IMG/VR virus record: IMGVR_UViG_3300031281_000002
Coordinates: 1 to 59,451 of that record
DNA length: 59,451 nt
Direction: 5' to 3' (one strand)
Source: a virus
Lineage: Duplodnaviria; Caudoviricetes
The translations under genes and the position numbers were made by a program. The notes under the pieces are model-generated. The model worked only from the letters and a program-made list of their open reading frames with translations. It did not search any database and had not been told where the DNA came from. Positions 23,716 through 52,260 of this stretch are shown here, piece after piece (the stretch's first letter is position 1; each line of letters starts with the position of its first letter).

Positions 23716-24600
23716 ATGAGGTATACTTTATATGGATTTTCTCAACAAATAGCAGTTGAATATGGTTTAGATCATAATGACTTATTAATACTAAGATGGT
23801 TTATTGATTTTAAAGATACAAATGATATGGTACATGAAGTGATAAATGGGGAAATTTATTACTGGATAAAGTATAAAAAGATTTTTGAAGACTTGCCAAT
23901 TTTAAATATAAAATCAAAAGATGTTATAAGAAGAAGATTAAAAAAATTAGTAGATAAAAAAATATTGACTCATTATACAAAAAAGAACATGGGTACATTT
24001 TCTTTTTATGGTGTTGGCCAAAACTATCTAAAATTAATAAGCACAGATTGGGGTACGACTTTAAAGTCGGGGGGTACGACTTTAAAGTCGGAGGGTACGA
24101 CTCAAAAGTCGGAACCGTACGACTCAAAAGTCGGAGGGGGTACGACTCAAAAGTCGGAACAAAATATTAATCTATTAAAAGATGATTCTATTAAAGATAT
24201 AAAAGAAGAGTGTGTAAAAAATAAATTTTTACACGAATCTGATGAAATGAAATTATCTAAGCTTCTTTTTAAAAAGATGAAAGATAATAACGATAAAGCA
24301 AAAGAACCTAATTTCCAAAAGTGGGCCGAAAATATAGATAAGCTTATGAGGCTTGATAAATATTCTGCAGATGAAATAACAAAAATGATTGAATTCTGCC
24401 AGTCTGACCATTTTTGGAAAAGTAATATACTTTCGACTAAAAAACTGAGAGAAAAGGCTGGTACTTTGATAATACAAATGAATAAGGATAAAGAGAAAAA
24501 AGGAAATAATAATCCTGCTCAAACCCAGAATTATGATCAAAGAAAATATGATAATGAATTTTGGGAAGAGTATGAAAAAGATATTCAATATATTAAATAA
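23716..24600 (+). CDS. Phage replication initiator (lambda O analogue)
   Basis: N-terminal winged helix, internal iterons, C-terminal FWKSNILSTKKLREK. Confidence 0.8.
   Translation: MRYTLYGFSQQIAVEYGLDHNDLLILRWFIDFKDTNDMVHEVINGEIYYWIKYKKIFEDLPILNIKSKDVIRRRLKKLVDKKILTHYTKKNMGTFSFYGVGQNYLKLISTDWGTTLKSGGTTLKSEGTTQKSEPYDSKVGGGTTQKSEQNINLLKDDSIKDIKEECVKNKFLHESDEMKLSKLLFKKMKDNNDKAKEPNFQKWAENIDKLMRLDKYSADEITKMIEFCQSDHFWKSNILSTKKLREKAGTLIIQMNKDKEKKGNNNPAQTQNYDQRKYDNEFWEEYEKDIQYIK
24053..24157. repeat. Five iterons, phage replication origin
   Basis: GTACGACT(TT/CA)AAAGTCGG at 24053, 24074, 24095, 24117 and 24140, each with CGACT..AGTCG dyad symmetry. Confidence 0.85.
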
Positions 24601-26354: not shown

Positions 26355-26573
26355 ATGAAAATAATAGATATAATTGCAAATGAAAAAATGTTTATTAAAA
26401 GAATAGACATAGATGGTTGTTCAACTTCTGTTGATATAGAATATGAAATTCATGGGAGGAAATCAAATTATAGAATATACTTTAAAACTATTGATTTAGC
26501 AGAATATAAAATAGGAGATATATTGAATTTTAATAAAGAAGAATTTCAAAAACTTTGTGAGAAAGTGAGGTGA
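26355..26573 (+). CDS. Hypothetical protein
   Basis: Start at the junction repeat. Confidence 0.5.
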   Translation: MKIIDIIANEKMFIKRIDIDGCSTSVDIEYEIHGRKSNYRIYFKTIDLAEYKIGDILNFNKEEFQKLCEKVR

Positions 26574-26578
26574 GAAAG

Positions 26579-27451
26579 ATGAAAGGACAAATGTTAATTA
26601 ACGAAAATCAAATAATTGAAAATGAACTAGATTACCTTATTAAAAAATCTATATTAAGATTAAAAACATTTGAACCTGAAGATAATTATTGGCTTGCTTT
26701 TTCAGGCGGTAAAGATTCAATTATTATACATGATTTAGCTTTAAAAGCTGGAGTAAAATTTGAAGCAAATTATAATATAACAACTGTAGACCCACCAGAA
26801 CTTATTTATTATATTCGCGAAAAATATAAAAATGTTAAACATAATATGCCTCCTGACAATATGACTATGTGGAAACTTATAATTAAAAAGAAAATGCCTC
26901 CAACACGATTAATGAGATATTGTTGTCAATATTTTAAGGAAGCAGGAGGCGATGGTAGAACTGTTGTAACTGGAGTAAGATGGGATGAATCTAACAAAAG
27001 AAAAAAGAAAAGAGCTGCAATTGAAGCGAATGCAATGAGAAAATACGTTATAAAAACAAATGACAACGAAGAAGGGAGACATATTTTTGAAAATTGTAAT
27101 ATGAGAAGCAAACATATAATAAATCCAATTATAGACTGGAAAGATTATCATATTTGGGAATATATAAAAAAATATAAATTAGATTATTGCAAATTATATG
27201 ACGAAGGATGGAATAGATTAGGATGTGTTGGCTGTCCGATGCAGGGTAAAAAAGCGATTAAGGAATTTAATCGCTGGCCTAAAATAAAAGAACAATACAT
27301 AAGAACATTTGAAAAAATGATTGAAAAAAGAATTGAAGATGGATTAAAAACAACTTGGAAAACTGGTCAAGAAGTTTTTGACTGGTGGATTTGTGAAAAT
27401 GAAAAACAAAAAGAATATATTTGTGATGGTCAAATAAGTTTATTTAAATGA
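26579..27451 (+). CDS. PAPS-reductase (CysH/DndC-like) family protein with Fe-S cysteines
   Basis: AFSGGKDS PP-loop, RYCC..FKE, GVRWDES..R, RLGCVGCP. Confidence 0.85.
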   Translation: MKGQMLINENQIIENELDYLIKKSILRLKTFEPEDNYWLAFSGGKDSIIIHDLALKAGVKFEANYNITTVDPPELIYYIREKYKNVKHNMPPDNMTMWKLIIKKKMPPTRLMRYCCQYFKEAGGDGRTVVTGVRWDESNKRKKKRAAIEANAMRKYVIKTNDNEEGRHIFENCNMRSKHIINPIIDWKDYHIWEYIKKYKLDYCKLYDEGWNRLGCVGCPMQGKKAIKEFNRWPKIKEQYIRTFEKMIEKRIEDGLKTTWKTGQEVFDWWICENEKQKEYICDGQISLFK

Positions 27452-31863: not shown

Positions 31864-32122
31864 GGGCGTTGACAATAAAACAAATTTGTAAAAATGATGA
31901 AAATGGGAATACGAATTTCAGTAAGTATTTTGAAAGAAATTTGAAAAATATGATGAGGGTACTTGCTAAGAGGAGGAAGAAATGAACATAGAAGAAAGAA
32001 TGGTGAACTATTAACTGATAATGGAATGTTTCAAAGGTATTTCGCCCGCTGTGGTTGAAATATCTTTTTACATTTAGTATAATATAAATATTGTTATTAA
32101 TCAGAAATAATAGTTTTCAAAT

Positions 32123-32153
32123 AAAAAGTCTTTGTCGTCGCAGAGGCTTTTTT
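32123..32153. terminator. Terminator
   Basis: AAAAAGTCTTTG...CAGAGGCTTTTT. Confidence 0.65.
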
Positions 32154-32160
32154 ATTTTAT

Positions 32161-32189
32161 TTGACGTTTTATATTATTTGACATATAAT
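32161..32189 (+). promoter_or_regulatory. Sigma-A promoter upstream of the structured RNA and packaging genes
   Basis: TTGACG-17 bp-TATAAT. Confidence 0.65.
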
Positions 32190-32224
32190 ATTGTTAGTCA
32201 ATCATTACATTATGTGAAGTAAGA

Positions 32225-32293
32225 TGTCATATCCTATAGAGTACTTGGAGGCACTGGTTTACTGGGAAGCGGGTTCGAATCCTGCTATGGCAT
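32225..32293 (+). ncRNA. tRNA-like element lacking a normal anticodon arm
   Basis: Acceptor stem TGTCATA/TATGGCA; T-arm GCGGG-TTCGAAT-CCTGC. Confidence 0.5.
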
Positions 32294-32435
32294 TAAAACC
32301 AACGTAGCTGAAGGTTGCGTAATTCAACGACTACGATATCAAGAATTACGGCCGAGCGTAACGGTTTATAGGGATAGCTGGACATTCCAATATTACGCAA
32401 TTCCAGCACTTAATAACAAAATAAAGGATAAAGAA

Positions 32436-32648
32436 ATGATAACAATGTGGACTAGAAAAATTAATAAAAAATACGAAAAGATAAAAAAAGGTTGCGAGAA
32501 AAAGAATATTACACTAAAAGAACTGTGTAAAATACTTGGAATGTCTCGACAGAATTTATATGCAATGGTTCACAGAGGCAGGCTTAAGAATGAGTATGTT
32601 GAAATTATAAATAAGAAATTAGATATAAATTATAATGAACAAAAATAA
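32436..32648 (+). CDS. HTH protein
   Basis: ITLKELCKILGMSRQNLY. Confidence 0.7.
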   Translation: MITMWTRKINKKYEKIKKGCEKKNITLKELCKILGMSRQNLYAMVHRGRLKNEYVEIINKKLDINYNEQK

Positions 32649-32708
32649 AATTTAGTGTAAAATCATACACAGACCAGTTAATGGTCTTTTTTAGAATAAG
32701 GTGGTTTT

Positions 32709-33251
32709 ATGACTAACAATAAAAAAAATAAGCGAGGAAGAAAAAGTAAATATTATACTCATGTAGAACCGAAACTTGACTTGATTGAAGATTGGAGACA
32801 AAAAGGAGATACGGAGGAACAAATATCAAATAAATTAGGAATATCTTATAAATCATTAAATGAATATAAATTAAAATTTCCACAATTTACACAAGTACTA
32901 AGGGCGTCAAAAGAAAGATTGGCAATAAATCTCAAAAAAAGTTTATGGAAAGAAGCTTTAGGATATGAGTATGAAGAGGTAAAAAAAACAGAGGAAAAAA
33001 GTTATTTAGGCAATAAAACAAAAACTGAGAAAACTAAAAAGAAATTTAGAGGACAGCCGAATTTATTAATATTTGCCTTATGTAATTTGTTACCAGATGA
33101 ATTTAAGAGGATTGATAAAGAGATAATTAAAGAATTAGAGGATAAAATTGACGAGAAACTTGAATATAATAATGACATATTCAAAAAAGAGTTTGAAAAG
33201 TTATTTCCAAAAAAGAATATAAAAACAGATAAAGAAACTGGAAAGAAATAA
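32709..33251 (+). CDS. terS: Terminase small subunit
   Basis: GRKSKY, HTH, LWKEALGYEYEE, LIFALCN; directly before terL. Confidence 0.75.
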   Translation: MTNNKKNKRGRKSKYYTHVEPKLDLIEDWRQKGDTEEQISNKLGISYKSLNEYKLKFPQFTQVLRASKERLAINLKKSLWKEALGYEYEEVKKTEEKSYLGNKTKTEKTKKKFRGQPNLLIFALCNLLPDEFKRIDKEIIKELEDKIDEKLEYNNDIFKKEFEKLFPKKNIKTDKETGKK

Positions 33252-33270
33252 AAGGATATAGGTAGCTTTA

Positions 33271-35607
33271 ATGTCACATATAGAATTAAGAGATATTGTA
33301 ACAAATATTACAGATTGGGATCATAAACTTGGTATAGCTCCAAGAACATTTGAACAATTTTATTTTTGGATAAATGAATTTTTTGGATATTACATACCTT
33401 ATTCTAATGAAAAACCGTGTGAAGGACATTCTTATCCTTTATCTGCAATGTGGGAAGCTTATGCCGAAATAACACCGATGGCTATATGGTATGCAAATAG
33501 AGCGGGTGGGAAAACATATGATTTATCTGTTTTATCATTTATGGAATCTATATTTAAAAAAAATTGCGGGATAAATATATTAGGTGGTTCATTAGACCAG
33601 GCACAAAAAGCAATATCGTATTTAACAGAATTTTGGGATTTTCCTAATGCACCAACACATTTATTAGTTGGAAATCAAGTATCTAAAAGAGGATATAAAT
33701 TAACTAATGGGTCATGGGTAAGAGCGTTAGCGGCGAGTTCTAAATCAGTAAGAGGAAGCCATCAACCTAAATTGCGAATTGACGAATGCTTGACAGGTGA
33801 CACATTAATAAAAACAACACATGGATATAAAAAAATAATAGAAATAAATAACAAAGATATAGTATATGGATGGAACGGTGTTAAAATAAAAAAATGTATG
33901 GTACAATATAATTGTTATATGGGTGAGAGAAAAACATATAAAATTTTTTTCTCTAACGGTAAATATATAAATTGTACTGAAAACCATAAAATTTTAACAA
34001 CGAAAGGATATAGAAATTTAAATGAAATCAGAAGGTGGAAATGTAAGGGTGAATCAATCTTTGTTATCGGTGAACGTAAAAAGTTGTTTAATGTGTGGAA
34101 AAAAATTAAATTTAAAAAGAAAATATACAACAGGATATTGCCAAGAATGTTATATAAAATTAAATTCTGTACCAAAAAAATATTGTCAAGATTGCAAAAA
34201 AGAAATAACAAAAAATTCAACGATATGCAGAAGTTGCTATGCAAAAAGAAGAAAAGCAAAGAAACCAAAATGTATAGAATGTGGAAAAGAATTGAGGCAT
34301 ATTGCAAAACGTTGCAAAAAATGCTATTTAAAACACCTTTCGAAAATAGGAATGGATTCAAGAATGGCAAAGGCAAGAGCGACAGCATTGAAGAAAAATC
34401 CAACAAAAGCAGAAATACAAGCATCAGAATTATTAGAATATTTAAAAATATCATATCAATCACAAGTACCATTTGGAAGATACATAGTAGATTTTTTATG
34501 CAAAGATTTAAATTTAATAATAGAGGTACATGGAGAATATTGGCACAACAGAGAAAAGACGATAAAAATAGACGAAAGAAAGAAAATATTTTTAGAAAAA
34601 GAAGGATACAAAGTTCTGGTATTAAAAACAACATTAATGCATTTATGGTTTTCAAAAATTATGAAGTTTATGAAATAGTAAATATAAAAGATGATAAAAT
34701 AAATAAAGTTTATGATTTGAAAATTAAAGGGCTTAAATCATTTTTAGCAAATGGAATAATAGTTCACAATTGCGATGAACTTGATAAAAATATATACTTA
34801 GCGGCTTTGGGGCAGCCAAAAACAATGAATGGAATTCCAGAAAATATAATTATATCATCAACATTGCATCAACCATTTGGTTTAATGAGTGAAATAGTTG
34901 AATCAAAAGATGATATAGGAGCAAAATTATTTAAATGGTGTGTTAAAGAAGTTCAAGAACCACACGGATATTGGAAAGAAGCAGAAATAAAATTAAAAAA
35001 AAGACAGATTACAAAAGCGATGTTCGATGCTGAATATTTATGCCTCCGTCCTAAAATCGGAGATACAATATTCGATTTTGAATCTGTAGATAGGTCCTAT
35101 AGAAGAGGAATTAAAGATAAATATAATAAAAAATTATATACAGAAGCAGGAATCGATTGGGGTTATGCGGTTACAGCAATGAGTATTATACAGGACACTA
35201 AAGAAATATTTACAAATCCTATTACTAAAACTTTTGAGTATATTGAATTGACAGATAGGTGTAGAGAAATAGCTGATTTATGTATAGAATATGATATAAA
35301 GATAATTTATTGTGATAGCAATCCAAAAGACAGTAATATTACATTAAAAAAGATACTTAAAGAAAAAAGATGCCAAACAGAATTGATTACAATAGCATTT
35401 AATAAATGGAAAGATGTTGGAATAAATGTGATAAGATTATTATTAGAAAAAAATAGGCTTAATATAACTGACAAAACAGCACAGGAAAAATGTAAAAAAT
35501 ATCATTATAAGAATCCTGAACAGGGTATTATTGCGAAAGAAGATGATCATATTCCAGATAGTTTAATTGCGTGGGGTAGTTCAAGGCATCATTTATTAGG
35601 AATATAA
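33271..35607 (+). CDS. terL: Terminase large subunit containing an intein
   Basis: Walker A NRAGGKT, VRG, Walker B LRIDE split by the intein, nuclease GIDWG and DDHIPDS. Confidence 0.9.
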   Translation: MSHIELRDIVTNITDWDHKLGIAPRTFEQFYFWINEFFGYYIPYSNEKPCEGHSYPLSAMWEAYAEITPMAIWYANRAGGKTYDLSVLSFMESIFKKNCGINILGGSLDQAQKAISYLTEFWDFPNAPTHLLVGNQVSKRGYKLTNGSWVRALAASSKSVRGSHQPKLRIDECLTGDTLIKTTHGYKKIIEINNKDIVYGWNGVKIKKCMVQYNCYMGERKTYKIFFSNGKYINCTENHKILTTKGYRNLNEIRRWKCKGESIFVIGERKKLFNVWKKIKFKKKIYNRILPRMLYKIKFCTKKILSRLQKRNNKKFNDMQKLLCKKKKSKETKMYRMWKRIEAYCKTLQKMLFKTPFENRNGFKNGKGKSDSIEEKSNKSRNTSIRIIRIFKNIISITSTIWKIHSRFFMQRFKFNNRGTWRILAQQRKDDKNRRKKENIFRKRRIQSSGIKNNINAFMVFKNYEVYEIVNIKDDKINKVYDLKIKGLKSFLANGIIVHNCDELDKNIYLAALGQPKTMNGIPENIIISSTLHQPFGLMSEIVESKDDIGAKLFKWCVKEVQEPHGYWKEAEIKLKKRQITKAMFDAEYLCLRPKIGDTIFDFESVDRSYRRGIKDKYNKKLYTEAGIDWGYAVTAMSIIQDTKEIFTNPITKTFEYIELTDRCREIADLCIEYDIKIIYCDSNPKDSNITLKKILKEKRCQTELITIAFNKWKDVGINVIRLLLEKNRLNITDKTAQEKCKKYHYKNPEQGIIAKEDDHIPDSLIAWGSSRHHLLGI
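33787..34770 (+). mobile_element. Intein (328 aa) inserted at the terminase Walker B motif
   Basis: Block A CLTGDTLI, block B CTENH, blocks F/G VYDLKI...FLANGIIVHN followed by Cys+1. Confidence 0.92.
34022..34678 (+). CDS. Zinc-finger plus Vsr/DUF559-like endonuclease, overprinted in the +1 frame inside the intein
   Basis: CxxC repeats; PTKAE...QVPFGRYIVDF...IIEVHGEYWH...D..K...L...GYKVL. Confidence 0.8.
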   Translation: MKSEGGNVRVNQSLLSVNVKSCLMCGKKLNLKRKYTTGYCQECYIKLNSVPKKYCQDCKKEITKNSTICRSCYAKRRKAKKPKCIECGKELRHIAKRCKKCYLKHLSKIGMDSRMAKARATALKKNPTKAEIQASELLEYLKISYQSQVPFGRYIVDFLCKDLNLIIEVHGEYWHNREKTIKIDERKKIFLEKEGYKVLVLKTTLMHLWFSKIMKFMK

Positions 35608-35619
35608 TTTGGAGGTTTT

Positions 35620-36306
35620 ATGACTAATACTGAAATTATAAGTAAACATTCAAATATAAATTTGAATGTAGATAAATCAAAAATTAAAAATACTATTTGC
35701 AAAATATGTGGAAAAGAAAAAGAATCAATAAAAGAAAAGGAGATCATATCTTCTAATTTTACAAATTATGATTTATGTAAATGTAAAGAAAGTTTATTTA
35801 TATGTGTTGATTGTGCGAAATGTATAAAAGATATTGAGCTAAGAAGAAATAATTTTATTGCTGATAAAAATAATTTATATTTATTCAAAAAGAATGATAT
35901 AGAAAAATATATTTTTAATATTGATAGATATATTAAAAATGATTTTGTTGCTGGAGTTACATATACATTTAAAAAACATAATTCATTTAAATGTAATGTT
36001 AATTCTGATTATAATAAATTTTATATACAGCAAGAGGATGATAAAATATTTTTTGATGTCAAAAAAGCTAAAAAAATATATGATATCTTAAATGATGCCT
36101 ATTTATATTTTACAAAGGATGAATTATTAACTGGTGAATATAAAGCAATTTCAGTAATGCAATATGGATTAACTTCATTTGATTTATTAGAAAATATTCT
36201 AAAAGATATTAGAAAAACAAATTTATTTAAATTTTTAATATATATATTAAATTCTGAAAAAAGAAATGAAATATTACAAGAAAGAAGGAAAGTAAATGGA
36301 AGATGA
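35620..36306 (+). CDS. csf1: Type IV CRISPR large subunit Csf1 (Cas8-like)
   Basis: CKIC...SSNFTNYD...ICVDC zinc finger, KKH motif; first gene of the RAMP operon. Confidence 0.65.
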   Translation: MTNTEIISKHSNINLNVDKSKIKNTICKICGKEKESIKEKEIISSNFTNYDLCKCKESLFICVDCAKCIKDIELRRNNFIADKNNLYLFKKNDIEKYIFNIDRYIKNDFVAGVTYTFKKHNSFKCNVNSDYNKFYIQQEDDKIFFDVKKAKKIYDILNDAYLYFTKDELLTGEYKAISVMQYGLTSFDLLENILKDIRKTNLFKFLIYILNSEKRNEILQERRKVNGR

Positions 36307-36676
36307 AAAAATAAAAGATTTAGCAATTATATCATTGGTTGCTGTTTGGGATAAAATTGACTGGGATAAAATAAAACTTGAAAGAGCGTATAAAATATGG
36401 GATGAATTTTCAAACAAAGTAAGAGCATCAGCATTTACTACAAATAAATTTAATATATTCATAAATAAATTATGTAAAAAACTTGATATAGCTGCATTAT
36501 CAGACAGATGCCTTAATGAAATTATCGAAATGGATGATGATATAAAATATAAAATACTTGATTTGATTAGAAATGATTTACATTCAGTAATTTTAGCTAT
36601 GAGACTAAATATTGAGATTAGAAAACAAGAACGTGAAATAAGAAAAAATAAAGAAAGTGAAGTGAATACCATATGA
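36296..36676 (+). CDS. Cas11-like small subunit
   Basis: 126 aa, predicted all-helical; sits between csf1 and csf2. Confidence 0.55.
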   Translation: MEDEKIKDLAIISLVAVWDKIDWDKIKLERAYKIWDEFSNKVRASAFTTNKFNIFINKLCKKLDIAALSDRCLNEIIEMDDDIKYKILDLIRNDLHSVILAMRLNIEIRKQEREIRKNKESEVNTI

Positions 36677-37518
36677 AAATTGATTTAGAATTAAAATTAA
36701 AAAGTCCATTATGCCATTTCGGAGATGAAAGAATGGGAACTATGCAAGTTTTAAGAACTATGAAATTTTTATATGGAGATAAATATATTGATGTACCTGT
36801 ATATTCTGGAAATGCCATGAGAGGTATATTAAGAAGATATGCAATGAAACATTATATAGATATGTTAGAATTGCCTGATGGAATTTCAACAAAATTATTT
36901 TATATGTTATTTTCTGGTGGTGCAATTACATCAGGGTCAAGATATGAAAAAATAGAAGAAAAAAGAGAAATGAGAAAAAAGTGTCCACCACTTGCATTGT
37001 TTGGGACAGCAATTGGAGACCAGATAACAGAAGGTAAATTAAAATGTGGAATATTAAAACCAATATGCAAAGAATTAAATGATTATAATAATACCAAAAG
37101 CGATATATCTATATATGATATGCTTGAAGATATTTTTTATACAAGAAGAGATGATTTGAAAAGTCAAAGCAAAATAAAAGTAAAAAACAAAGAAATAAAA
37201 GTAAAAAAAGATGGGAAAGAAGATAAAAAGAAAGAAAATCCAGTTCAAATGAAATACGAAATTCAAGCTATATCAACAGGAAGTATTTTGGAAGGTAGAA
37301 TTATTATAGAGAATGAAAACGAAATTGAAAAAGCGTGTTTATTTTCTACATTAAATCAGTTAGATAAAATTCCATATATCGGCGGGAAATCAGCGACAGG
37401 ACACGGAGAAATCGAGCTAAATTATAGCAGAGAAGGATTTGATATCTATAATGAATATATTAAAAACAATAAAAATGATATTCTAGAATGGCTAATTAAA
37501 ACAGAAGGAATTTTATAA
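36673..37518 (+). CDS. csf2: Type IV CRISPR backbone RAMP Csf2 (Cas7)
   Basis: LKSPLCH, VPVYSGNAMRGILRR, LFSGG, LALFG, G-rich loop IGGKSATGHG. Confidence 0.85.
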   Translation: MKIDLELKLKSPLCHFGDERMGTMQVLRTMKFLYGDKYIDVPVYSGNAMRGILRRYAMKHYIDMLELPDGISTKLFYMLFSGGAITSGSRYEKIEEKREMRKKCPPLALFGTAIGDQITEGKLKCGILKPICKELNDYNNTKSDISIYDMLEDIFYTRRDDLKSQSKIKVKNKEIKVKKDGKEDKKKENPVQMKYEIQAISTGSILEGRIIIENENEIEKACLFSTLNQLDKIPYIGGKSATGHGEIELNYSREGFDIYNEYIKNNKNDILEWLIKTEGIL

Positions 37519-37519
37519 A

Positions 37520-38248
37520 ATGAATTTTGTTGAAAGAAAAATAAATAATTTTTATAGAATAATTGATAAAGCAATGAATAAATATAAAAAACATTATATT
37601 AGTTGCAGTTGGGGTAAGGATTCAATTTTAGTAGTACATTTGATAATATCAAGATATCCAGACACAACAATAATTTTTATGAATTCTGGATATGCTTTAT
37701 CAGATATATATAAATTTAGGGATTATTATTTGAAAGAATATAGAGTAAAAAATTATATAGAATTAAAATGTCCTCATGATTATGTTGAATTAAATTTAAA
37801 ATATGGGTTACCTTCGATTGACAGAAGTATTTCAGATCATGAAAAAGTTAAAAATATAATAAAAAAAGATGTAATTGATGAATGGGCAATAAAAAATAAT
37901 TATGATTGTTGTTTTTGGGGAATAAGAGCAGATGAAACAGCAGGTAGAAAAAAATTATTAAGAAAATATGGATTGTTATATAGAACTTCTGAAATAGCAA
38001 AATGTTCACCTATTGGATGGTGGGGAAATAATGATGTATGGAATATTATTGATTGTTTAAACATTCCATATTCTAAAATATATGATAAAGAACTTAAACC
38101 ATTTTTTACAAGAGATACAATAAAAAATGGTGGATATTTAACAACAGATAAAGCTAATAAAGGTAGGATAATTTGGTTAAAAAAATTTTATCCTACTGAT
38201 TATGAAAAATTATTTTCGAAATTTATTGAGGTAAAAAAATATGTTTGA
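37520..38248 (+). CDS. CysH-like (PAPS reductase family) protein of the type IV-B module
   Basis: SCSWGKDS, GIRADE..GR, SPIGWW; lacks the CC/CxxC Fe-S motifs. Confidence 0.8.
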   Translation: MNFVERKINNFYRIIDKAMNKYKKHYISCSWGKDSILVVHLIISRYPDTTIIFMNSGYALSDIYKFRDYYLKEYRVKNYIELKCPHDYVELNLKYGLPSIDRSISDHEKVKNIIKKDVIDEWAIKNNYDCCFWGIRADETAGRKKLLRKYGLLYRTSEIAKCSPIGWWGNNDVWNIIDCLNIPYSKIYDKELKPFFTRDTIKNGGYLTTDKANKGRIIWLKKFYPTDYEKLFSKFIEVKKYV

Positions 38249-38930
38249 AAATTGTAAAATAACGTTTAGAATGAGCACTCCAATTGCAATTATGGGGTAT
38301 ATATTTTTAGATGCTTTAATATCGGCAGCATGTGCAAAGGAAATGCTTGGTGACGATTATTATAATGGGTTAATGAATCAAAAAGATTTAAATGGTGGGC
38401 ATGAATTTAATACTGATGATTTACCAATATATTTTAATAAGACATTAAATATTTATCATGCAAGTACTGGATTTGGTGATAATTTAGAATCTGTATGCAG
38501 TTGGTCGAAGAGATGGGATAATAAAAATGATAATATTGTAAAATTTAAAGGAAATACAAAAGGTAGAGTTGATATTGGTGCTGGATATTATAAAAATTAT
38601 CATATGCCAATTATAATTAAATCATATAAAAATATATATTTTTATGCAAATTGTGAAATCAAAAAAGTTGAATATCTTTTAAATAAATATATACATTTTA
38701 TTGGAAAAAAACCATCACAAGGCTATGGAGAAATAAAAGAAATAATTGTTAAGAAAATGAATAACGATTATAGCATATGGGATAAATCAAATAATAATAA
38801 ACATATATTAAGACGACCAATTATGGTTTCATCACAAAAGAATAAATTATCAAATAGGATAGAAAAAATATCTGTACGGCCACCATATTGGAGAACTGAT
38901 TATTTGGAATATTGTTATATGCCAGAATAA
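38241..38930 (+). CDS. csf3: Type IV CRISPR RAMP Csf3 (Cas5-like)
   Basis: TPIA...FLDALI, HAS, IGKKPSQGYGEI G-loop, RRP, RPPYW. Confidence 0.8.
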   Translation: MFENCKITFRMSTPIAIMGYIFLDALISAACAKEMLGDDYYNGLMNQKDLNGGHEFNTDDLPIYFNKTLNIYHASTGFGDNLESVCSWSKRWDNKNDNIVKFKGNTKGRVDIGAGYYKNYHMPIIIKSYKNIYFYANCEIKKVEYLLNKYIHFIGKKPSQGYGEIKEIIVKKMNNDYSIWDKSNNNKHILRRPIMVSSQKNKLSNRIEKISVRPPYWRTDYLEYCYMPE

Positions 38931-39016
38931 ATAAAATTTTAAAAAAGGGATGGATGAAATAGTTAAAATATTAGCATGTTTAGTTGATGATATATACAAT
39001 AAATAAAAAATAGGAG

Positions 39017-40510
39017 TTGAATAAAATGTTTTTAAGCCAAGGTTCATCATTTCCGCCAAGCGGATTTGGATATTGGTATACAAAATATGACGAGTGGGAA
39101 ACTTGGTATAGTGGTGACCCTGAAAATTTATTGAAATTTTATACTATACTAGCCTTAGGTAATGCTACTGCTCAGGAAAAATTCTGGGCAAGGATGGAAG
39201 AAGAAGACAGAGCAGGTATTATCCATATTCCGGTTGCTGGTGATATTGCAATGACTTCAGCTAATTTATTATTCTCTGAATCACCACGATTTAAATATGA
39301 TGATAAGGCAAAGTCAGGAGAAAGAATCAAAACTTTTTTAGATATAAATGGATTTGAAAATATATTATTAGAAGGTGCCGAACTATCAGCTGCATTATCT
39401 GGCTGTGTATTAAAATTAGATATAGAGCCAAAATTAGAAAAAATTCCTATTGTTTCAATTTTAACACCTAAACAATTTATACCTACATTCTGGCGTGGTA
39501 GATTATGGGAAATATTAATGTTTAGAGTTGTAAAGACAACAGATGCGGGAGCAATATATAGATTGTTTGAAAACAGAAAGAGAGAAAATAATGCATTAAT
39601 TATTGAATACAAGCTACATAAGGGAACTGTTGATAAAGTTGGTAAAGAAATTGGATTTGATGAAATAGAAGAGACTGAAAATTTAAATTTAGAGCCAATT
39701 AGGCATAACAATATAGATGGACTTGGATGTGTCTATATTCCAAATATGAGGCCAAATAAATTAATGCCAGGTTCATATCTGGGAATCAATGATTTTTCAT
39801 CGAGTATAACAATGCTTGATTCGCTTGACTTTGCATGGACTAGCTGGATGAGGGATATCGAACTAGGATTAGCACAATTATTAATTGATGAAGAAATACT
39901 CGAGAAACAAAAAAGCACAACAGGTGGAACTGTTCAATTCTTAAATAAATTCAATAAGTTCAGAAAAGCATTTATAAAATTGAATCTTTCATCCTGGAGA
40001 ATGGGAGGAGAAGGTGGAATAAAACCTATAGAACAGGTCCAGTTTAATATTAGAGTTGATGAACATGCAAAAACATGTGAACAACTATTTTATCAAATTG
40101 TAAATCAATGCGGTTATTCTCCACAAACATTTGGATTAGGAATAGAAGGAAGAGCAGAAAGCGGAACGGCATTGAAACTTAGAGAAGGAAAAAGTCAGGG
40201 TACAAGAAATAAAAAAACGAGATATTGGATTCCAGCTGTAAAACAATTATTATTGCAAATGCAAAGGTTAGATAAGGAATCAGGATTAAATAGTTCGTAT
40301 GATGAGCAAAGTGTATCAATTGAGATTGAGGATTCAATTGCGACAGATGAAAAAGAAGTTTCTGAAACAATCAGAAATCTTGATCAAGCAAGGGCAATAT
40401 CTAATTATACAAAAGTAAAATTACAGCATCAGGATTGGTCAGAAGATGATATTATGGCAGAGGTAAAAAGAATAAATGATGAACAGGGGATTACGGGGGA
40501 AATATTATGA
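39017..40510 (+). CDS. Portal protein (SPP1/A118-like)
   Basis: 497 aa; SANLLFSE, YIPN, LDSLD..W.SWMRD, GYSPQTFG, ESGTAL. Confidence 0.85.
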   Translation: MNKMFLSQGSSFPPSGFGYWYTKYDEWETWYSGDPENLLKFYTILALGNATAQEKFWARMEEEDRAGIIHIPVAGDIAMTSANLLFSESPRFKYDDKAKSGERIKTFLDINGFENILLEGAELSAALSGCVLKLDIEPKLEKIPIVSILTPKQFIPTFWRGRLWEILMFRVVKTTDAGAIYRLFENRKRENNALIIEYKLHKGTVDKVGKEIGFDEIEETENLNLEPIRHNNIDGLGCVYIPNMRPNKLMPGSYLGINDFSSSITMLDSLDFAWTSWMRDIELGLAQLLIDEEILEKQKSTTGGTVQFLNKFNKFRKAFIKLNLSSWRMGGEGGIKPIEQVQFNIRVDEHAKTCEQLFYQIVNQCGYSPQTFGLGIEGRAESGTALKLREGKSQGTRNKKTRYWIPAVKQLLLQMQRLDKESGLNSSYDEQSVSIEIEDSIATDEKEVSETIRNLDQARAISNYTKVKLQHQDWSEDDIMAEVKRINDEQGITGEIL

Positions 40511-40758
40511 ATGAAATAATATTTGTAATTGGAATAATAATTTTTATTATAAGTTTATATTTGATAAAATATTTTATAAATTCAAGAAATAAAAAAGATA
40601 TTCAAAAAAACAAAGGAAAAGAATATCAATGTATTATTTGTAATAAAAAATATGTAACAAGCAATCTTGTATCTATGGATAATGGAAAACATCAGTTGTG
40701 CTCTGATAAATGCATCTATAGATATATGACATCTGGGTTTAAAGAAATAGTGAGGTGA
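40507..40758 (+). CDS. TM plus TRASH-like zinc-finger protein
   Basis: CIIC...CSDKC. Confidence 0.5.
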   Translation: MNEIIFVIGIIIFIISLYLIKYFINSRNKKDIQKNKGKEYQCIICNKKYVTSNLVSMDNGKHQLCSDKCIYRYMTSGFKEIVR

Positions 40759-40863
40759 AATATTATGTGGCAATGTGGAAATTGCGGTGCATGGAATGCA
40801 TTTTGGAGAACTAGATGTTTAGAATGTGGAGCTTGGAAATAAAAAGAGAAAGCGAGAAATATA

Positions 40864-41379
40864 ATGAAAAATGATTTTATAAGGTTTAAATGGGAACATG
40901 ATACTGAATATGAATATAGGCATAGTATTCATGTGATAAGTAAAGAATTACATCAAATATTATCAGAATATGCAAATACAGCTAAAAAGATACCTGATTA
41001 TAAAGATATATTAAAAAGATTAGAAAATATAAATACTATTATATTTGACTTAACTGTACCTGGGATTTATGCGAAATCGGATGGATATTTAAGAAATGCT
41101 ATGGAATATTACATCAGAGCTACAAAGATAATGATTGATGAATCAAGTAAAAAAGAAGATGAACAAAATCGAACAATAATAATTAAAGCCGCAAGGCTTA
41201 TTGAAACAGGGACAGCATTTATTACAATTGTTTCAGCTATGAATTTTGAGACGTTTGAAGAGATGCAAAAGGAAATAGATAAAAATGGATCTAATGATAA
41301 AAAAGCTTTTGAATTAGCTGAACTTTTTCATAAAAAATTATTAGAAATGGATAAAAATGATAAATCAAAGAAGTTATGA
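40864..41379 (+). CDS. Hypothetical helical protein
   Basis: 171 aa ORF overlapping the start of the next gene. Confidence 0.55.
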   Translation: MKNDFIRFKWEHDTEYEYRHSIHVISKELHQILSEYANTAKKIPDYKDILKRLENINTIIFDLTVPGIYAKSDGYLRNAMEYYIRATKIMIDESSKKEDEQNRTIIIKAARLIETGTAFITIVSAMNFETFEEMQKEIDKNGSNDKKAFELAELFHKKLLEMDKNDKSKKL

Positions 41380-51132: not shown

Positions 51133-52260
51133 ATGATGGTTAAAGTTTTCAATAAAACACATTATATTATTAATGCTGGGGGGTTTAAATTTAATCCTTT
51201 TGAAGAAATCGAAATAAATATAGGTGAATATGATAAGGAATTTATAGAAATAAGAAGCAATAATGGTTTAAGAGTTGGCAAAAACAATAACAAAGAATAC
51301 AAAAGAAGACATGGATTAGTAAAAGGGCATGAAATAAATTTTTGTTATGATGAAATGAGTCAGCATGCTGGAAGTGCTTATAAATATGCAATTCAAGCAT
51401 TAGCAGATCCAATTATTAAGCACTTAAATAAAATTGATACTGGTTATGTCCATAGGCCTTTAACAAATATAAATTGTAGATTCTTTAGTTCAAAAAGAAT
51501 AAATGAGCATGGGAAAAGTCCGGTAGGCCCATATGATGTATTTTTCTCGCATGGAATTGGAGATAAAAATTACTGGATAGGTCCTAATATAAAAGATTAT
51601 AAATATGCTTTTGTTCCTGGACCAGCATGGGAAAAAAGAATGAGAAAAACAGGATATAAAGGAGAAATTTTTGTTTGTGGGTATACAAAACTTGATCCAC
51701 TTTTAAATGGAGAATTAGAATTTAAAAAGCATGATAAGCCTTATATTGTTTGGGCTCCTACGCATGGCTATGCAAGCAAGCACAAAGGAAGGTCATCATA
51801 TCCACAATGTTTAAGTTTAATAAAAGAAATACCAGATTGCTATGAAACAAAGTTAGCATTGCATCCAACATCAAAACTACATAACAAAGAAAAACACAAA
51901 CCAACATTAATAGAATTATTAGAAGCTGATGTAATAATTGCTGATGCTGGAAGTACATTATACGAAGCATGGATATTAGGAAAGCCTGTAATTTTTCCTG
52001 ACTGGATATGTGCTGCTGATACCATGAATCATTTTGAAAAAGATAAAGATAACTTTGAGTATCAAATTTACTCAAAGAAAATAGGCTATCATGCAAAAGA
52101 CATGAAACATATGAATGAGTTAATTGAGATAGCCTTAAGAGATGGAATGAGAGATGAAGAGAAGGAATTTATTGAAAGTATTTATCCGACGGAACTAAGA
52201 GGTAAAGCAGGGGAAACCGCTGCAAAGTATTTGAAACAATTATTGAAAAGATTAGGCTAA
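51133..52260 (+). CDS. CDP-polyol phosphotransferase-like (TagF-type GT-B) protein
   Basis: HGIGDK, GYTKLD, WAPTH, LHP, IADAGSTLYEA..LGKPVIF. Confidence 0.7.
   Translation: MMVKVFNKTHYIINAGGFKFNPFEEIEINIGEYDKEFIEIRSNNGLRVGKNNNKEYKRRHGLVKGHEINFCYDEMSQHAGSAYKYAIQALADPIIKHLNKIDTGYVHRPLTNINCRFFSSKRINEHGKSPVGPYDVFFSHGIGDKNYWIGPNIKDYKYAFVPGPAWEKRMRKTGYKGEIFVCGYTKLDPLLNGELEFKKHDKPYIVWAPTHGYASKHKGRSSYPQCLSLIKEIPDCYETKLALHPTSKLHNKEKHKPTLIELLEADVIIADAGSTLYEAWILGKPVIFPDWICAADTMNHFEKDKDNFEYQIYSKKIGYHAKDMKHMNELIEIALRDGMRDEEKEFIESIYPTELRGKAGETAAKYLKQLLKRLG

What the first reader, a model, noticed from the sequence alone, without database searches (positions are those of the whole stretch)
35620..38930. 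Array-less type IV-B CRISPR-Cas-like effector operon embedded between terminase and portal
Seen: five tightly coupled genes. They encode a zinc-finger Csf1-like protein, a small helical protein, a Cas7-type RAMP (VPVYSGNAMRGILRR, G-loop), a PP-loop CysH-like enzyme and a Cas5-type RAMP (IGKKPSQGYG, RPPYW). The block starts 12 bp after terL and ends 86 bp before the portal. I see no CRISPR array, cas6, cas1/2 or dinG anywhere in this apparently complete genome. Known: type IV-B modules carry csf1, cas11, csf2, csf3 and cysH, usually lack arrays, and have no established function. Inference: the position implies co-transcription with late packaging genes, so the complex may act late. It could sponge host crRNAs, use a non-CRISPR guide RNA, direct CysH-like chemistry onto DNA/RNA, or be packaged into virions.
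Basis: partly seen in the sequence, partly recalled or inferred. Interest (0 to 1): 0.9.

Follow-up and report, generated by a model that had tools for sequence, protein, structure and literature searches.

The report
Phage type IV-B CRISPR operon
A complete 59-kb phage carries a genuine CRISPR-array-less type IV-B Cas complex plus its CysH-like enzyme wedged between its DNA-packaging genes; this kind of system is already known from plasmids and phages, its job is still unknown, and its relatives hint that it chemically modifies nucleic-acid bases.

Summary
Five tightly coupled + strand genes at 35620-38930 encode Csf1, Cas11, Csf2/Cas7, a CysH-like PP-loop enzyme and Csf3/Cas5 (PADLOC E 3e-27, 5e-20, 1e-63, 7e-42; Pfam PAPS_reduct 5.5e-18). 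They sit 12 nt after an intein-bearing terL and 86 nt before an SPP1-type portal. The genome is complete (127-bp terminal repeat). It has no CRISPR array, Cas6, Cas1/2 or DinG-type match. It also has no integrase but does have a Rep_3 replicon, so it looks like a phage-plasmid.

All five genes are under purifying selection (dN/dS 0.11-0.23 against an 87%-identical relative with the same terL-module-portal order). This is a new member of a known kind: subtype IV-B is already reported on plasmids, prophages and viruses, and this scan has met it on other phage DNA many times.

Two things add value. The module lies within 7 kb of terL in 12 of 18 related records with a detectable terL. In 13 of 56 related loci the CysH slot instead holds a tRNA-guanine-transglycosylase/DpdA-like enzyme, swapped at least 4 times on the Csf2 tree; the scan saw this pairing before (e1-3290835).

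Best reading, about 40%: a late-expressed RNA-loaded Csf filament works with the PP-loop enzyme to modify a nucleic-acid base. RNA sponging and crRNA scavenging remain rivals.

The parts
32161..32189 (+). Candidate promoter of the packaging/late operon (TTGACG-17-TATAAT, 11 of 12), just after a terminator-like hairpin at 32123-32152
   Evidence: Consensus scan only. Function is not shown.
32709..33251 (+). terS (small terminase subunit)
   Evidence: phrog_309 terminase small subunit, 2.4e-29
33271..35607 (+). terL (large terminase), interrupted by a 328-aa intein (33787-34770)
   Evidence: Intein_splicing PF14890, 5.4e-10. The C-extein resembles Terminase_6C clusters in the ESM Atlas. Pfam, PHROG and PDB sequence searches of the exteins were empty.
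35620..36306 (+). csf1 (type IV large-subunit analogue with a Cys4 zinc ribbon)
   Evidence: PADLOC Csf1_0_IV 3e-27. TIGR03114 4.6e-06, below cut-off. C27 is invariant and C30, C62, C65 nearly invariant in 24 homologues. The profile hits IV-A Csf1 chains 9n3y/7xfz at 2e-4.
36296..36676 (+). cas11 (type IV small subunit)
   Evidence: PADLOC Cas11_1_IV 5.1e-20 and Cas11_0_IV 8.1e-11. There is only a non-significant PDB sequence hit to the IV-C Cas11c chain, E 0.22.
36673..37518 (+). csf2 (Cas7 backbone subunit)
   Evidence: PADLOC Csf2_0_IV 1.1e-63. The profile hits Cas7c 11fs at 3.1e-24 and the type IV-B Csf2 chain 7jhy at 3.7e-19. 203 homologues have E <= 1e-5.
37520..38248 (+). cysH-like gene (Cas-associated PP-loop ATP pyrophosphatase of the PAPS-reductase fold)
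   Evidence: PF01507 5.5e-18. AF2 model pLDDT 93.9. Foldseek best hits are PAPS reductases 6vpu/1sur, TM 0.62. The PP-loop residues S30, G32, K33, D34, S35 are invariant. No Cys lies in the last 63 residues. The family profile hits the Rhodococcus IV-B plasmid CysH-like protein at 2.7e-45.
38241..38930 (+). csf3 (Cas5 subunit)
   Evidence: PADLOC Csf3_0_IV 7.4e-42. TIGR03116 1e-13, below cut-off. The profile hits Csf3 chains 7xfz at 8.1e-11 and 8rc3 at 1.3e-10.
39017..40510 (+). Portal protein (likely start ATG 39026)
   Evidence: PF05133 SPP1_portal 2e-16. RBS read.

Best explanation
IDENTITY (about 95% sure). The locus is a bona fide, selectively maintained, array-less subtype IV-B CRISPR-Cas effector module. 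The gene order is csf1-cas11-csf2-cysH-like-csf3. It is inserted into the packaging operon (terS - terL[intein] - module - portal) of a complete 59.5-kb tailed phage. The phage has no integrase but has a Rep_3 replicon, so it looks like a phage-plasmid. By its relatives, the host is probably a member of the Clostridia.

MECHANISM (inferred, about 40%). The genes are transcribed with the packaging genes from a promoter upstream of terS. Csf2 and Cas11 polymerise on an RNA that is not a CRISPR transcript, as the solved Mycobacterium IV-B complex does, with Csf3 and Csf1 as caps. The CysH-like protein is a PP-loop ATP alpha-hydrolase that keeps its nucleotide-binding loop but has no catalytic cysteine. 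It acts on a nucleic acid held or exposed by that filament, adenylating and so modifying a base. The biological target is most likely the phage's own DNA or an RNA at the time of packaging.

SHOWN: the gene identities, the coupling, the absence of array/Cas6/DinG/adaptation genes, purifying selection, the PAPS-reductase fold with an intact PP-loop, the recurrent neighbourhood with terL, and the recurrent replacement of the CysH-like gene by a TGT/DpdA-like base-exchange enzyme in relatives.

INFERRED: late expression, complex formation with CysH, the substrate and the biological role.
For: Identity: HMMs; profile hits to solved Csf1/Csf2/Csf3 chains, including the IV-B Csf2 chain 7jhy. In one search, profiles built from the phage loci recognise the annotated IV-B modules of a Rhodococcus plasmid (Csf1 2.5e-11, Csf2 2.6e-31, CysH 2.7e-45, Csf3 6.1e-22) and of a Thermococcus nautili plasmid.

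Selection: dN/dS is 0.11-0.23 for all five genes against L003. The flanking terL C-extein gives 0.155 and the portal 0.091.

Enzyme: the AF2 model has pLDDT 93.9. Its nearest solved folds are PAPS reductases, then tRNA-modifying PP-loop enzymes TtuA, NcsA and TilS. S30, G32, K33, D34, S35, G134, R136, E139, R143, P164 and Y188 are invariant in 22 homologues. No cysteine is invariant and none lies in the C-terminal 63 residues. The C-terminal tail is shared with the Rhodococcus Cas-linked CysH. The Cas-linked family is distinct from the phage's second PAPS reductase at 26570-27451, which scores 4.8e-18 against the family profile where the operon's own enzyme scores 1.9e-92.

Base-modification link: in 13 of 56 related loci the slot between or after csf2 and csf3 holds a protein with no Pfam match in the 4 representatives scanned. 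Its model (pLDDT 95.8) aligns to ArcTGT and TGT at Z 16.1-16.8 over 210-214 of 227 residues, and all 50 entries shown are TGTs. Foldseek also lists the CBASS Cap10 chain 9ntn. In L027 a QueT 7-deazaguanine-precursor transporter (PF06177, 7.2e-29) sits next to it. On a Csf2 tree of 42 rows the TGT label needs at least 4 changes, and CysH and TGT versions are sister rows twice: L014/L017 and L015/L006.

Timing and place: there is no + strand terminator-like site between 32687 and 42100, and the strongest promoter-like sites lie upstream of terS. In L003 the same terL-module-portal order is kept. Of 30 related records searched with three TerL families, 18 had a hit over the cut-off, and in 12 of those 18 terL lies within 7 kb of the module (positions worked out).

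Literature: the IV-B complex binds heterogeneous RNA of regular length (PMC7937560, passages). CasCysH is proposed to AMPylate a bound nucleic acid (PMC8175902, section 7 read in full).
Against: No experiment of any kind exists for this phage, and no RNA run holds the stretch. The window itself has no TGT-like gene, QueC or QueT, so the base-exchange link is by analogy from relatives only.

A PP-loop enzyme and a transglycosylase do different chemistry. Their swapping shows that they fill one slot, not that they do one job.

The terL neighbourhood is not universal. Five of 18 records have terL 10-24 kb away, 12 of 30 had no terL hit, short contigs bias the count towards 'near', and the records are related to each other.

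An internal promoter cannot be ruled out in a 24-29% G+C genome. Sites matching 10 of 12 lie at 35986-36015, 37831-37860 and 38245-38272.

The substrate could be a protein rather than a nucleic acid. The QueC-like Cap9 and TGT-like Cap10 conjugate a nucleobase to a protein (10.1101/2025.04.06.647259, abstract). The CysH profile has a local hit to Cap9 chain 9nto_B (8.8e-06).
Confidence: 0.4

Rival explanations
1. RNA sponge / anti-CRISPR. The Csf2-Cas11 filament soaks up small RNAs, including host crRNAs or other guide RNAs, and so blunts RNA-guided host defences.
For: The solved IV-B complex binds heterogeneous RNA and not the co-expressed crRNAs (PMC7937560, passages). The sponge idea is in print (PMC7038947 and PMC8175902, passages). 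The window has no array, Cas6 or nuclease. Carriage by a phage makes counter-defence plausible.
Against: It gives no role to the conserved enzyme. The CysH PP-loop is invariant, and the slot is always refilled: 51 of 56 loci have CysH-like or TGT-like, and one of the remaining five is cut off right after csf2. The position inside the packaging operon suggests late expression, whereas counter-defence is needed early. The authors of PMC7038947 themselves call it unlikely because of its complexity.
Confidence: 0.15
2. Guide-scavenging interference between mobile elements. In the plasmid-like carrier state the complex loads crRNAs made by a host CRISPR-Cas system and silences competing plasmids or phages, much as type IV-A does by CRISPRi.
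For: Type IV-A works by transcriptional repression of mobile elements (PMC13676074 and PMC12669027, passages). The genome has a Rep_3 replicon with iterons and no integrase or resolvase, the kind of element on which type IV systems live.
Against: There is no Cas6, no helicase of the DinG or RecD type and no array here. The Mycobacterium complex did not load co-expressed I-E crRNAs (PMC7937560). IV-B tends not to co-occur with other CRISPR systems (PMC8175902, section 7). The module lies in the lytic packaging operon, not beside the replicon or repressor cassette at 52-54 kb.
Confidence: 0.15
3. Protein-directed chemistry or signalling. The CysH-like enzyme adenylates or conjugates a nucleobase to a protein (a Csf subunit, or a packaging or host protein), and the RNP serves as sensor or scaffold, by analogy with Cap9/Cap10 of type IV CBASS and QatC.
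For: The CysH profile has a local hit to Cap9 (9nto_B, 8.8e-06). The swapped-in TGT-like protein resembles Cap10 chains (9ntn, TMq 0.63-0.67). QueC-family and TGT-family proteins do carry out protein deazaguanylation (10.1101/2025.04.06.647259, abstract; PMC13279940, abstract in a search listing).
Against: The best fold matches of the TGT-like protein are tRNA enzymes, not Cap10. The CysH-like fold is nearest to PAPS reductases. A QueT next to a TGT-like gene in L027 fits DNA or RNA base exchange just as well. No candidate target protein is evident.
Confidence: 0.1
4. Structural or regulatory helper of packaging. The RNP binds phage DNA or RNA to regulate late genes, or is itself packaged, with no chemistry on nucleic acids.
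For: The module lies between terL and portal, and this is conserved in L003. terL lies within 7 kb in 12 of 18 relatives with a terL hit.
Against: In most relatives the module lies outside the terL-portal pair: 8 upstream of terL, 2 divergent and 5 far away. It is therefore a movable cassette, not a packaging component. This reading also does not explain the enzyme.
Confidence: 0.07
5. Decaying or selfish cargo with no current function.
For: None, beyond the lack of any demonstrated function for subtype IV-B.
Against: dN/dS is 0.11-0.23 in all five genes. The frames are intact and translationally coupled. The module is conserved in 53 viral and 3 genomic loci.
Confidence: 0.03

Closest known systems
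Subtype IV-B CRISPR-Cas of actinobacterial megaplasmids (Mycobacterium sp. JS623 Csf complex, PDB 7JHY; Rhodococcus plasmids)
   Same: The gene set is the same: csf1, cas11, csf2, csf3 and a cysH-like gene, with no array, Cas6, helicase or adaptation genes. The Csf2 profile hits 7jhy at 3.7e-19. Profiles from the phage loci hit all four Rhodococcus plasmid proteins. The CysH-like C-terminal tail is shared.
   Different: Csf2 identity to the Rhodococcus plasmid copies is only about 23-27% (one partial hit 35%). Here cysH sits inside the operon between csf2 and csf3, whereas in Rhodococcus it is divergent upstream of csf1. The carrier is a phage and the site is its packaging operon. Csf2 branches within a Bacillota/viral clade.
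Virus-borne IV-B modules in print: 'Fuxiviridae' of Bathyarchaeia (PMC10848311); IV-B on predicted prophages (10.1101/270033; PMC7038947)
   Same: A virus-encoded Csf module with a Cas-clade CysH-like gene next to csf3 and no adaptation genes.
   Different: Fuxivirus is an archaeal virus and has a two-repeat mini-array. None is found here. No published case that I read places the module between terL and portal.
Skermania phage SPI1 Orf40-44 (KR011061.1), all annotated as hypothetical proteins
   Same: A cultured tailed phage with csf2 (Orf42, 1.4e-33), csf3 (Orf43, 1.7e-26) and a cysH-like gene (Orf44, 1.7e-37), preceded by two ORFs of csf1 and cas11 size.
   Different: The order is csf2-csf3-cysH. 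The host is an actinobacterium. Orf40 and Orf41 did not reach E 0.01 with my Csf1 profile, and no Cas11 profile was run. The module is not next to packaging genes in the stretch shown; it lies near a ribonucleotide reductase and lysis genes.
Type IV-A (Csf + Cas6/Csf5 + CasDinG + array)
   Same: Homologous Csf1, Csf2 and Csf3. The profiles hit 9n3y/7xfz, 8rc2 and 8rc3.
   Different: Type IV-A has an array, a Cas6 and a helicase, lacks Cas11 and CysH, and acts by crRNA-guided repression. None of these parts is present here.
Phage 7-deazaguanine DNA modification (DpdA transglycosylases) and CBASS Cap9/Cap10
   Same: These are works-like comparisons only. A PP-loop enzyme and a TGT-family enzyme are used to alter a base or attach one. 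Relatives of this module carry a TGT-like enzyme and QueT.
   Different: The window has no TGT-like gene, QueC or QueT. The CysH-like protein is of the PAPS-reductase branch, not QueC.

Membership tests
[quoted passage not shown] | Csf2 (type IV Cas7) present | tested here: met
   PADLOC Csf2_0_IV 1.1e-63. The profile hits Csf2 chains 7jhy at 3.7e-19 and 8rc2 at 2.2e-06. NCBIfam TIGR03115 scores 4.6e-13, which is below its curated cut-off.
[quoted passage not shown] | Csf3 (type IV Cas5) present | tested here: met
   PADLOC Csf3_0_IV 7.4e-42. The profile hits 7xfz_B at 8.1e-11.
[quoted passage not shown] | Csf1 (small Cas8-like subunit with a zinc ribbon) present | tested here: met
   PADLOC Csf1_0_IV 3e-27. 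The four Cys are conserved. The profile hits 9n3y_A at 2e-4.
Subtype IV-B | Cas11 small subunit encoded in the operon | tested here: met
   PADLOC Cas11_1_IV 5.1e-20
Subtype IV-B | Associated cysH-like gene of the Cas-linked clade | tested here: met
   PF01507 5.5e-18. The family profile scores the Rhodococcus and T. nautili IV-B-linked proteins at 2.7e-45 and 1e-49. The window's other PAPS reductase scores only 4.8e-18. No full CysH-family tree with bona fide CysH was built.
Subtype IV-B | No DinG/RecD helicase, no Cas6/Csf5, no Cas10-like HD subunit | tested here: met
   A PADLOC scan of 85 other ORFs gave none of these families at E <= 1e-3. ORFs under about 65 aa were not scanned.
Subtype IV-B | No CRISPR array and no adaptation genes | tested here: met
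   Repeat searches found no array. No Cas1 or Cas2 family matched.
Subtype IV-B | Csf proteins assemble on RNA into a Csf2/Cas11 double filament | not testable with these tools
   This is known only for Mycobacterium sp. JS623 (PMC7937560). My one complex prediction gave no verdict (see Tried and rejected).
CasCysH (Cas-linked PP-loop enzyme; features as in PMC8175902, section 7) | PP-motif SGGxDS/T-like loop retained | tested here: met
   The window reads S-W-G-K-D-S at residues 30-35. S30, G32, K33, D34 and S35 are invariant in 22 homologues.
CasCysH (Cas-linked PP-loop enzyme; features as in PMC8175902, section 7) | C-terminal catalytic cysteine of PAPS reductases and DndC absent | tested here: met
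   Cysteines are at 29, 84, 130, 131, 162 and 179 only, and none is invariant. The Rhodococcus Cas-linked homologue has no cysteine at all.
Large terminase (TerL) | ATPase plus RNase-H-like nuclease domains recognised by a terminase model | tested here: inconclusive
   There was no Pfam, PHROG or PDB sequence hit for the exteins. The ESM Atlas links the C-extein to Terminase_6C clusters (0.96; TM 0.62-0.78). terS is upstream and the portal downstream.
Csf1 with a sliding-clamp docking tail (lead from earlier notes e1-5873473 and e1-3670251) | C-terminal QLSLF-type clamp-binding peptide | tested here: not met
   The Csf1 tail reads ...EILQERRKVNGR, and no Q[LI]x[LIVM][FLW] motif occurs anywhere in the protein.

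The most novel reading that the evidence does not exclude
Array-free self-marking. The Csf filament loads fragments of the phage's own abundant late transcripts, which would explain both the lack of an array and the heterogeneous RNA seen in vitro. It pairs them back onto the replicated phage genome. The R-loops expose bases to the CysH-like adenylating enzyme, or in sister modules to a DpdA-like transglycosylase fed by QueT. The element's own DNA is thereby chemically marked just before the neighbouring terminase packages it. This would be a natural RNA-templated 'base editor' used for anti-restriction, and it would give subtype IV-B its long-missing function.
Probability: 0.12. Interest if true: 0.9.

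Novelty: new member of a known kind. Interest (0 to 1): 0.45.

Why it matters
Subtype IV-B is among the CRISPR-Cas subtypes whose biological function is still unknown. A Cell Reports paper of 2026 still states this (PMC13676074, passages).

This instance adds three usable facts:
- A complete phage genome keeps the five genes, under purifying selection, inside its packaging operon.
- Across relatives, the cassette tends to sit at the terminase boundary.
- The enigmatic CysH-like slot is repeatedly exchanged for a tRNA-guanine-transglycosylase/DpdA-like enzyme, sometimes with a 7-deazaguanine-precursor transporter.

Together these point experiments towards nucleic-acid base modification at the time of packaging, rather than towards adaptive immunity. 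They also name a cultured phage, Skermania phage SPI1, in which this could be tested.

The window itself is an uncultivated salt-marsh phage with an unknown host, so it is a pointer rather than an experimental system.

Tried and rejected
1. DNA similarity of 33001-41000 to 50,697 phage records: no match.

2. Close-relative search in viral contigs with the single Csf2 protein: only L003. The alignment-based scan then gave 53 loci.

3. Conserved non-coding RNA. The 86-nt csf3-portal spacer and the 246-nt leader at 32190-32435 gave only short, low-complexity blastn matches in the other loci. The spacer is 6 nt in L003. ARAGORN and Rfam found nothing. I therefore drop the idea of an adjacent dedicated guide RNA for lack of evidence.

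4. Complex prediction of Csf1 + Csf3 + Csf2 with CysH-like as the partner: score 0.17 and 0.13 against a mark of 0.32. The verdict was 'no answer' and the controls were not run. This is not evidence either way.

5. Expression: no RNA holder was listed for 32000-41000.

6. Reads. The two DNA runs are kept as contigs. One (X2, from another study) has short contigs identical to the window over parts of terS, terL, the csf1-cas11 and csf2-cysH junctions and the portal. The three listed joints have sides of only 20-21 letters and I disregard them. Parts without cover mean nothing.

7. TerL by sequence: Pfam, PHROGs and PDB found nothing for the exteins.

8. phmmer of the operon's CysH-like protein against the window proteome did not find the second PAPS reductase. 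Pfam did.

9. The clamp-binding tail on Csf1 is absent.

10. TGT, QueC, QueT and the TGT-like 'x' profile are absent from the window. The A8 search had no positive control.

11. Literature. Searches for 'type IV-B' + 'transglycosylase' (1 irrelevant paper), 'Csf2' + 'deazaguanine' (1 of 3 papers listed, and in the one I read the two terms are unconnected) and 'type IV CRISPR' + 'DpdA' (0 papers) found no printed link. Moya-Beltran et al. 2021 (PMC8658065) is not held. Supplements were closed, so a mention there cannot be excluded.

12. The equivalence of invariant Asp18 of Csf2 with the 'Asp42' of PMC7937560 could not be settled. D18 aligns with the second Asp of an H-R-D-D stretch, by my count residues 32-35 of chain 7jhy_e, and I could not reconcile the numbering.

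Rows left out:
- The script stopped with an error at L053. Only 29 of the 32 loci I had picked as non-redundant were processed; L053, L055 and L058 were not. Alignments A6 and A7 come from those 29.
- Searches used 30 handles, namely those 29 plus L055.
- Loci left out of those 30 handles (26 in all) were L003 (the window's own close relative, reported separately), L053, the three genome loci L056-L058, and 21 viral loci dropped as near-duplicates or short contigs: L010, L011, L013, L015, L017, L020-L023, L026, L028-L030, L032, L033, L038, L039, L044, L046, L052, L054.
- The tree used 38 loci plus the window and three named records, and left out L012, L013, L020-L023, L026, L028-L030, L033, L038, L039, L044, L052-L054 and L056.
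- The Pfam tallies give families per set, not per protein, and terminase families can co-hit one protein. I therefore rely for the counts.

Full report
WHAT IS THERE. The window is a whole virus record of 59,451 bases with a 127-nt direct terminal repeat and a CheckV completeness of 100%. Its G+C content is 22-33% and nearly all genes are on the + strand.

- 35620-36306, 228 aa
- 36296-36676, 126 aa
- 36673-37518, 281 aa
- 37520-38248, 242 aa
- 38241-38930, 229 aa

Neighbouring genes overlap by 11, 4 and 8 nt or are 1 nt apart. Four of the five starts have a clear Shine-Dalgarno sequence.

IDENTITY. PADLOC models give Csf1_0_IV 3e-27, Cas11_1_IV 5.1e-20, Csf2_0_IV 1.1e-63 and Csf3_0_IV 7.4e-42. 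NCBIfam's Csf1, Csf2 and Csf3 equivalogs match below their strict cut-offs.

The fourth protein is a PAPS_reduct domain protein (5.5e-18) and has no PADLOC model.

Profiles built from relatives hit solved chains. Csf2 hits the type IV-C Cas7c (11fs, 3.1e-24), the type IV-B Csf2 of Mycobacterium (7jhy, 3.7e-19) and the IV-A Csf2 (8rc2). Csf3 hits IV-A Csf3 (7xfz, 8.1e-11). Csf1 hits IV-A Csf1 (9n3y, 2e-4).

The same profiles recognise the annotated IV-B neighbourhoods of a Rhodococcus plasmid and a Thermococcus nautili plasmid, including their PAPS-reductase-family genes (2.7e-45 and 1e-49).

The gene content is therefore that of subtype IV-B as defined in the literature: core csf1-3, cas11, a cysH-like gene, and no array, Cas6 or helicase (PMC8175902 section 7; PMC7038947 passages).

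WHAT IS ABSENT. Tandem and dispersed repeat searches show no CRISPR array or two-repeat mini-array.

The only regular short repeats have other explanations. Five 21-23-nt units at 24051-24160 lie inside a DnaD/O-like replication gene and are probably origin iterons. Three ATGTAAAGATTTCG units at 53115-53200 lie beside a Rep_3 gene.

A PADLOC scan of 85 further ORFs gave no Cas6, Cas1, Cas2, DinG or Cas10 family. No tRNA and no Rfam family was found.

SURROUNDINGS. Upstream lie a small terminase gene (phrog_309, 2.4e-29) and a 778-aa ORF. Its middle 328 residues are an intein (PF14890, 5.4e-10).

Standard models miss the exteins of this ORF. The ESM Atlas, however, places the C-extein with Terminase_6C clusters, among them an intein-bearing large-terminase cluster. 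I accept the terL assignment with that caveat.

Downstream is an SPP1-type portal (2e-16) and then a minor capsid protein 2 (1.5e-41).

The best promoter-like sites (11 of 12) are upstream of terS at 32055-32083 and 32161-32189, just after a terminator-like hairpin. No + strand terminator-like site lies between 32687 and 42100. Promoter-like sites inside the operon are no more frequent than in shuffled sequence. Co-transcription with the packaging genes is therefore the simplest reading, but it is not shown, and no RNA run was available.

The genome has no tyrosine or serine recombinase but has a Rep_3 initiator (4.4e-14). Pfam also lists a RepA_N family match, an ERF recombinase, a DnaC-like loader and Cro/CI-type regulators. 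It looks like a phage-plasmid, which fits the usual plasmid association of type IV systems. That last step is an inference.

IS IT MAINTAINED? A 7.8-kb viral contig (L003) has the same terL-csf1-cas11-csf2-cysH-csf3-portal order, with 77-87% protein identity. Nei-Gojobori dN/dS between the two is as follows:

| Gene | dN/dS |
|---|---|
| csf1 | 0.16 |
| cas11 | 0.18 |
| csf2 | 0.11 |
| cysH-like | 0.23 |
| csf3 | 0.14 |
| terL C-extein | 0.155 |
| portal | 0.09 |

A second salt-marsh sample, from another study, holds short contigs identical to the window.

HOW COMMON, AND WHERE? Csf2 has 203 database homologues at E <= 1e-5. The few that carry names come from Clostridia: Terrisporobacter, Clostridioides difficile, Alkalithermobacter and Clostridiales.

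An alignment-based scan found 53 loci in IMG/VR and 3 in species genomes. One cultured phage, Skermania phage SPI1, carries an unannotated copy. Its Orf42-44 are csf2, csf3 and cysH-like.

Phage carriage as such is therefore not new, and it is also in print (10.1101/270033, PMC7038947 and PMC10848311, passages). The scan's own notes list many phage IV-B cassettes: 177 findings in at least 107 genomes hold the search words.

The exact slot between terL and portal is shared only by the window and L003.

A looser association is general. I searched 30 related records with three TerL families, and 18 had a hit above the cut-off. In 12 of those 18 the terL ORF lies within 7 kb of the module:
- 8 downstream on the same strand: L005, L006, L007, L014, L027, L034, L035, L045
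- 2 upstream on the same strand: L037 at 424 nt, and L047
- 2 divergent: L018, L050

L008 has terL at the far end of a linear 43.6-kb record. Five records have it 10-24 kb away: L024, L025, L031, L043 and L051. Twelve records had no hit (with coordinates).

Against a rough expectation of 0.3, 12 of 18 has a binomial tail of 0.0014. This figure needs caution, because short contigs and shared ancestry inflate it.

THE ENZYME. The CysH-like protein folds with high confidence (pLDDT 93.9). Its nearest solved structures are PAPS/APS reductases and CysD. These are followed by FAD synthase and by the tRNA-modifying PP-loop enzymes TtuA, NcsA and TilS.

In 22 homologues the PP-loop (S30, G32, K33, D34, S35) and G134, R136, E139, R143, P164 and Y188 are invariant, while no cysteine is. 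The last 63 residues contain no cysteine. This matches the published description of CasCysH: a PP-motif, no catalytic Cys, and a proposed ATP alpha-hydrolase that AMPylates a substrate (PMC8175902, section 7).

The phage has a second, different PAPS-reductase gene at 26570-27451 in its early region (PF01507 2.3e-22; phrog_424 1.2e-41; it has a Cys-rich C-terminal part). This gene scores only 4.8e-18 against the Cas-linked profile.

A CLUE FROM RELATIVES. Profile searches over all 56 loci gave the following classification:
- 38 have a Cas-type CysH-like gene in or next to the module.
- 13 have instead a 219-250-aa protein in the same slot: L006, L017, L025-L032, L034, L043 and L054.
- 3 have neither.
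- 1 is truncated.
- 1 has only a distant PAPS reductase upstream.

The substitute protein has no Pfam match in the 4 representatives scanned and no PDB sequence match with its family profile. It has 68 homologues, with invariant D-S-G-A, A-P-D and H-x-L-G-x-G motifs.

Its model (pLDDT 95.8) aligns to archaeosine and bacterial tRNA-guanine transglycosylases at Z 16.1-16.8, rmsd 3.0-3.3, over 210-214 of 227 residues, and all 50 entries listed are TGTs. Foldseek also lists the CBASS Cap10. From memory, the D-S-G-A-F motif resembles the TGT/DpdA active-site motif; I did not test that residue by residue.

In L027 a QueT transporter gene (7.2e-29) follows it inside the operon.

On a Csf2 tree of 42 rows the TGT label needs at least 4 changes, even counting only well-supported branches. 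Twice a TGT-type and a CysH-type module are sister rows: L017/L014 and L006/L015.

The scan had already noted this pairing on other DNA (e1-3290835). I reached it independently, and my result agrees with that note. A later check there priced the 'one machine' reading at 25 in 100. The searches I ran found no printed link.

HOW IT MOST LIKELY WORKS. Several things are shown:
- an intact Csf gene set without any guide source;
- a conserved PP-loop enzyme without a redox cysteine;
- a slot that evolution refills with a base-exchange enzyme;
- a cassette that tends to sit at the terminase boundary and here lies inside the packaging operon.

It is established for a relative that the IV-B backbone assembles on heterogeneous RNA of about 55-60 nt (PMC7937560).

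From these I infer that the filament presents or exposes a nucleic acid, and that the accessory enzyme modifies a base in it, late in infection. I put this at about 40%.

The rivals each explain less:
- RNA sponge: 15%
- crRNA scavenging for conflicts between mobile elements: 15%
- protein-directed conjugation as in Cap9/Cap10: 10%
- packaging or regulatory helper: 7%
- relic: 3%

The boldest version, self-templated marking of the phage's own DNA through R-loops, I put at 12%.

COMPARISON AND VERDICT. The module is a member of subtype IV-B, and every defining feature I could test is met. The carrier and the site are unusual. The embedded cysH position is shared by 25 of the 56 related loci.

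It is a new member of a known kind. Its interest is moderate. The mystery of the subtype's function, the packaging-operon context and the accessory-swap clue raise it. Prior reports of IV-B on viruses, the many earlier hits of this scan and the lack of a cultured host lower it.

Noticed in passing
window 33787-34770 (intein) and 34022-34678 (+ strand, other frame): The terL intein stays open for 328 codons. A 218-aa ORF in another frame inside it encodes a double zinc ribbon plus a DUF559/Vsr-like endonuclease (PF04480, 8.9e-13). This looks like a homing endonuclease nested out of frame within the intein. It was also noted earlier as e1-6240646.
   Followed up: partly
window 26570-27451: There is a second PAPS-reductase-family gene of the common phage type (PF01507 2.3e-22; phrog_424 1.2e-41; PADLOC BrxP 7e-14). 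It lies in the early/replication region and is distinct from the Cas-linked enzyme. Homologues lie upstream of the Csf module in L027, L041 and L054.
   Followed up: partly
window 52257-53200 (- strand gene plus intergenic repeats): A Rep_3 initiator (Rep3_N, 4.4e-14) has three ATGTAAAGATTTCG repeats beside it, and the genome has no tyrosine or serine recombinase. This suggests a phage-plasmid lifestyle. It was also noted earlier as e1-6240650.
   Followed up: yes
window 24051-24160: Five tandem 21-23-nt repeats (GGGTACGACTnnAAAGTCGG...) lie inside the DnaD/O-like replication-organiser gene 23716-24600. They look like origin iterons.
   Followed up: no
This is a glycan or teichoic-acid-like gene set in a phage.
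   Followed up: no
window 19349-19414 and 20389-20454: Two 66-nt copies (83% identical) of a hairpin-rich intergenic element flank the genes at 19431-20391. Rfam found nothing at gathering score. Earlier notes e1-6240649 and e1-6240648 propose an RNA motif and a hammerhead here.
   Followed up: no
window 32190-32435: A 246-nt leader lies between the strongest promoter-like site and a small HTH-like ORF upstream of terS. It contains a tRNA-like T-arm (GCGGGTTCGAATCCTGC). ARAGORN and Rfam are negative, and no similar sequence occurs in the related loci. The lead came from e1-6240652.
   Followed up: partly
L006, L017, L025-L032, L034, L043, L054 (for example L027:8818-9501): A TGT/DpdA-like protein replaces the CysH-like gene in 13 of 56 Csf modules. 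L027 also carries QueT (9486-9962). Other cargo inside modules includes a PAPS_reduct+DUF3440 protein (L007:9885-11210, L009:3606-4655) and a sodium:solute symporter fragment (L058:8863-9924).
   Followed up: yes
L001 (Skermania phage SPI1, KR011061.1) 4792-8425, Orf40-44: A cultured phage carries an unannotated type IV-B-like module. Orf42 is csf2, Orf43 is csf3 and Orf44 is cysH-like. All are deposited as hypothetical proteins.
   Followed up: partly
L014:6434-7642 and L016:3004-4161: Csf3 is 385-402 aa in these close relatives, against 229 aa in the window. This is an extra domain that I did not identify.
   Followed up: no
window 57477-58862: A 461-aa protein has three DUF285 repeats (1e-67) and a PKD domain, with internal 138-nt DNA repeats at 58082-58588. 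It may be a receptor-binding or surface protein.
   Followed up: no
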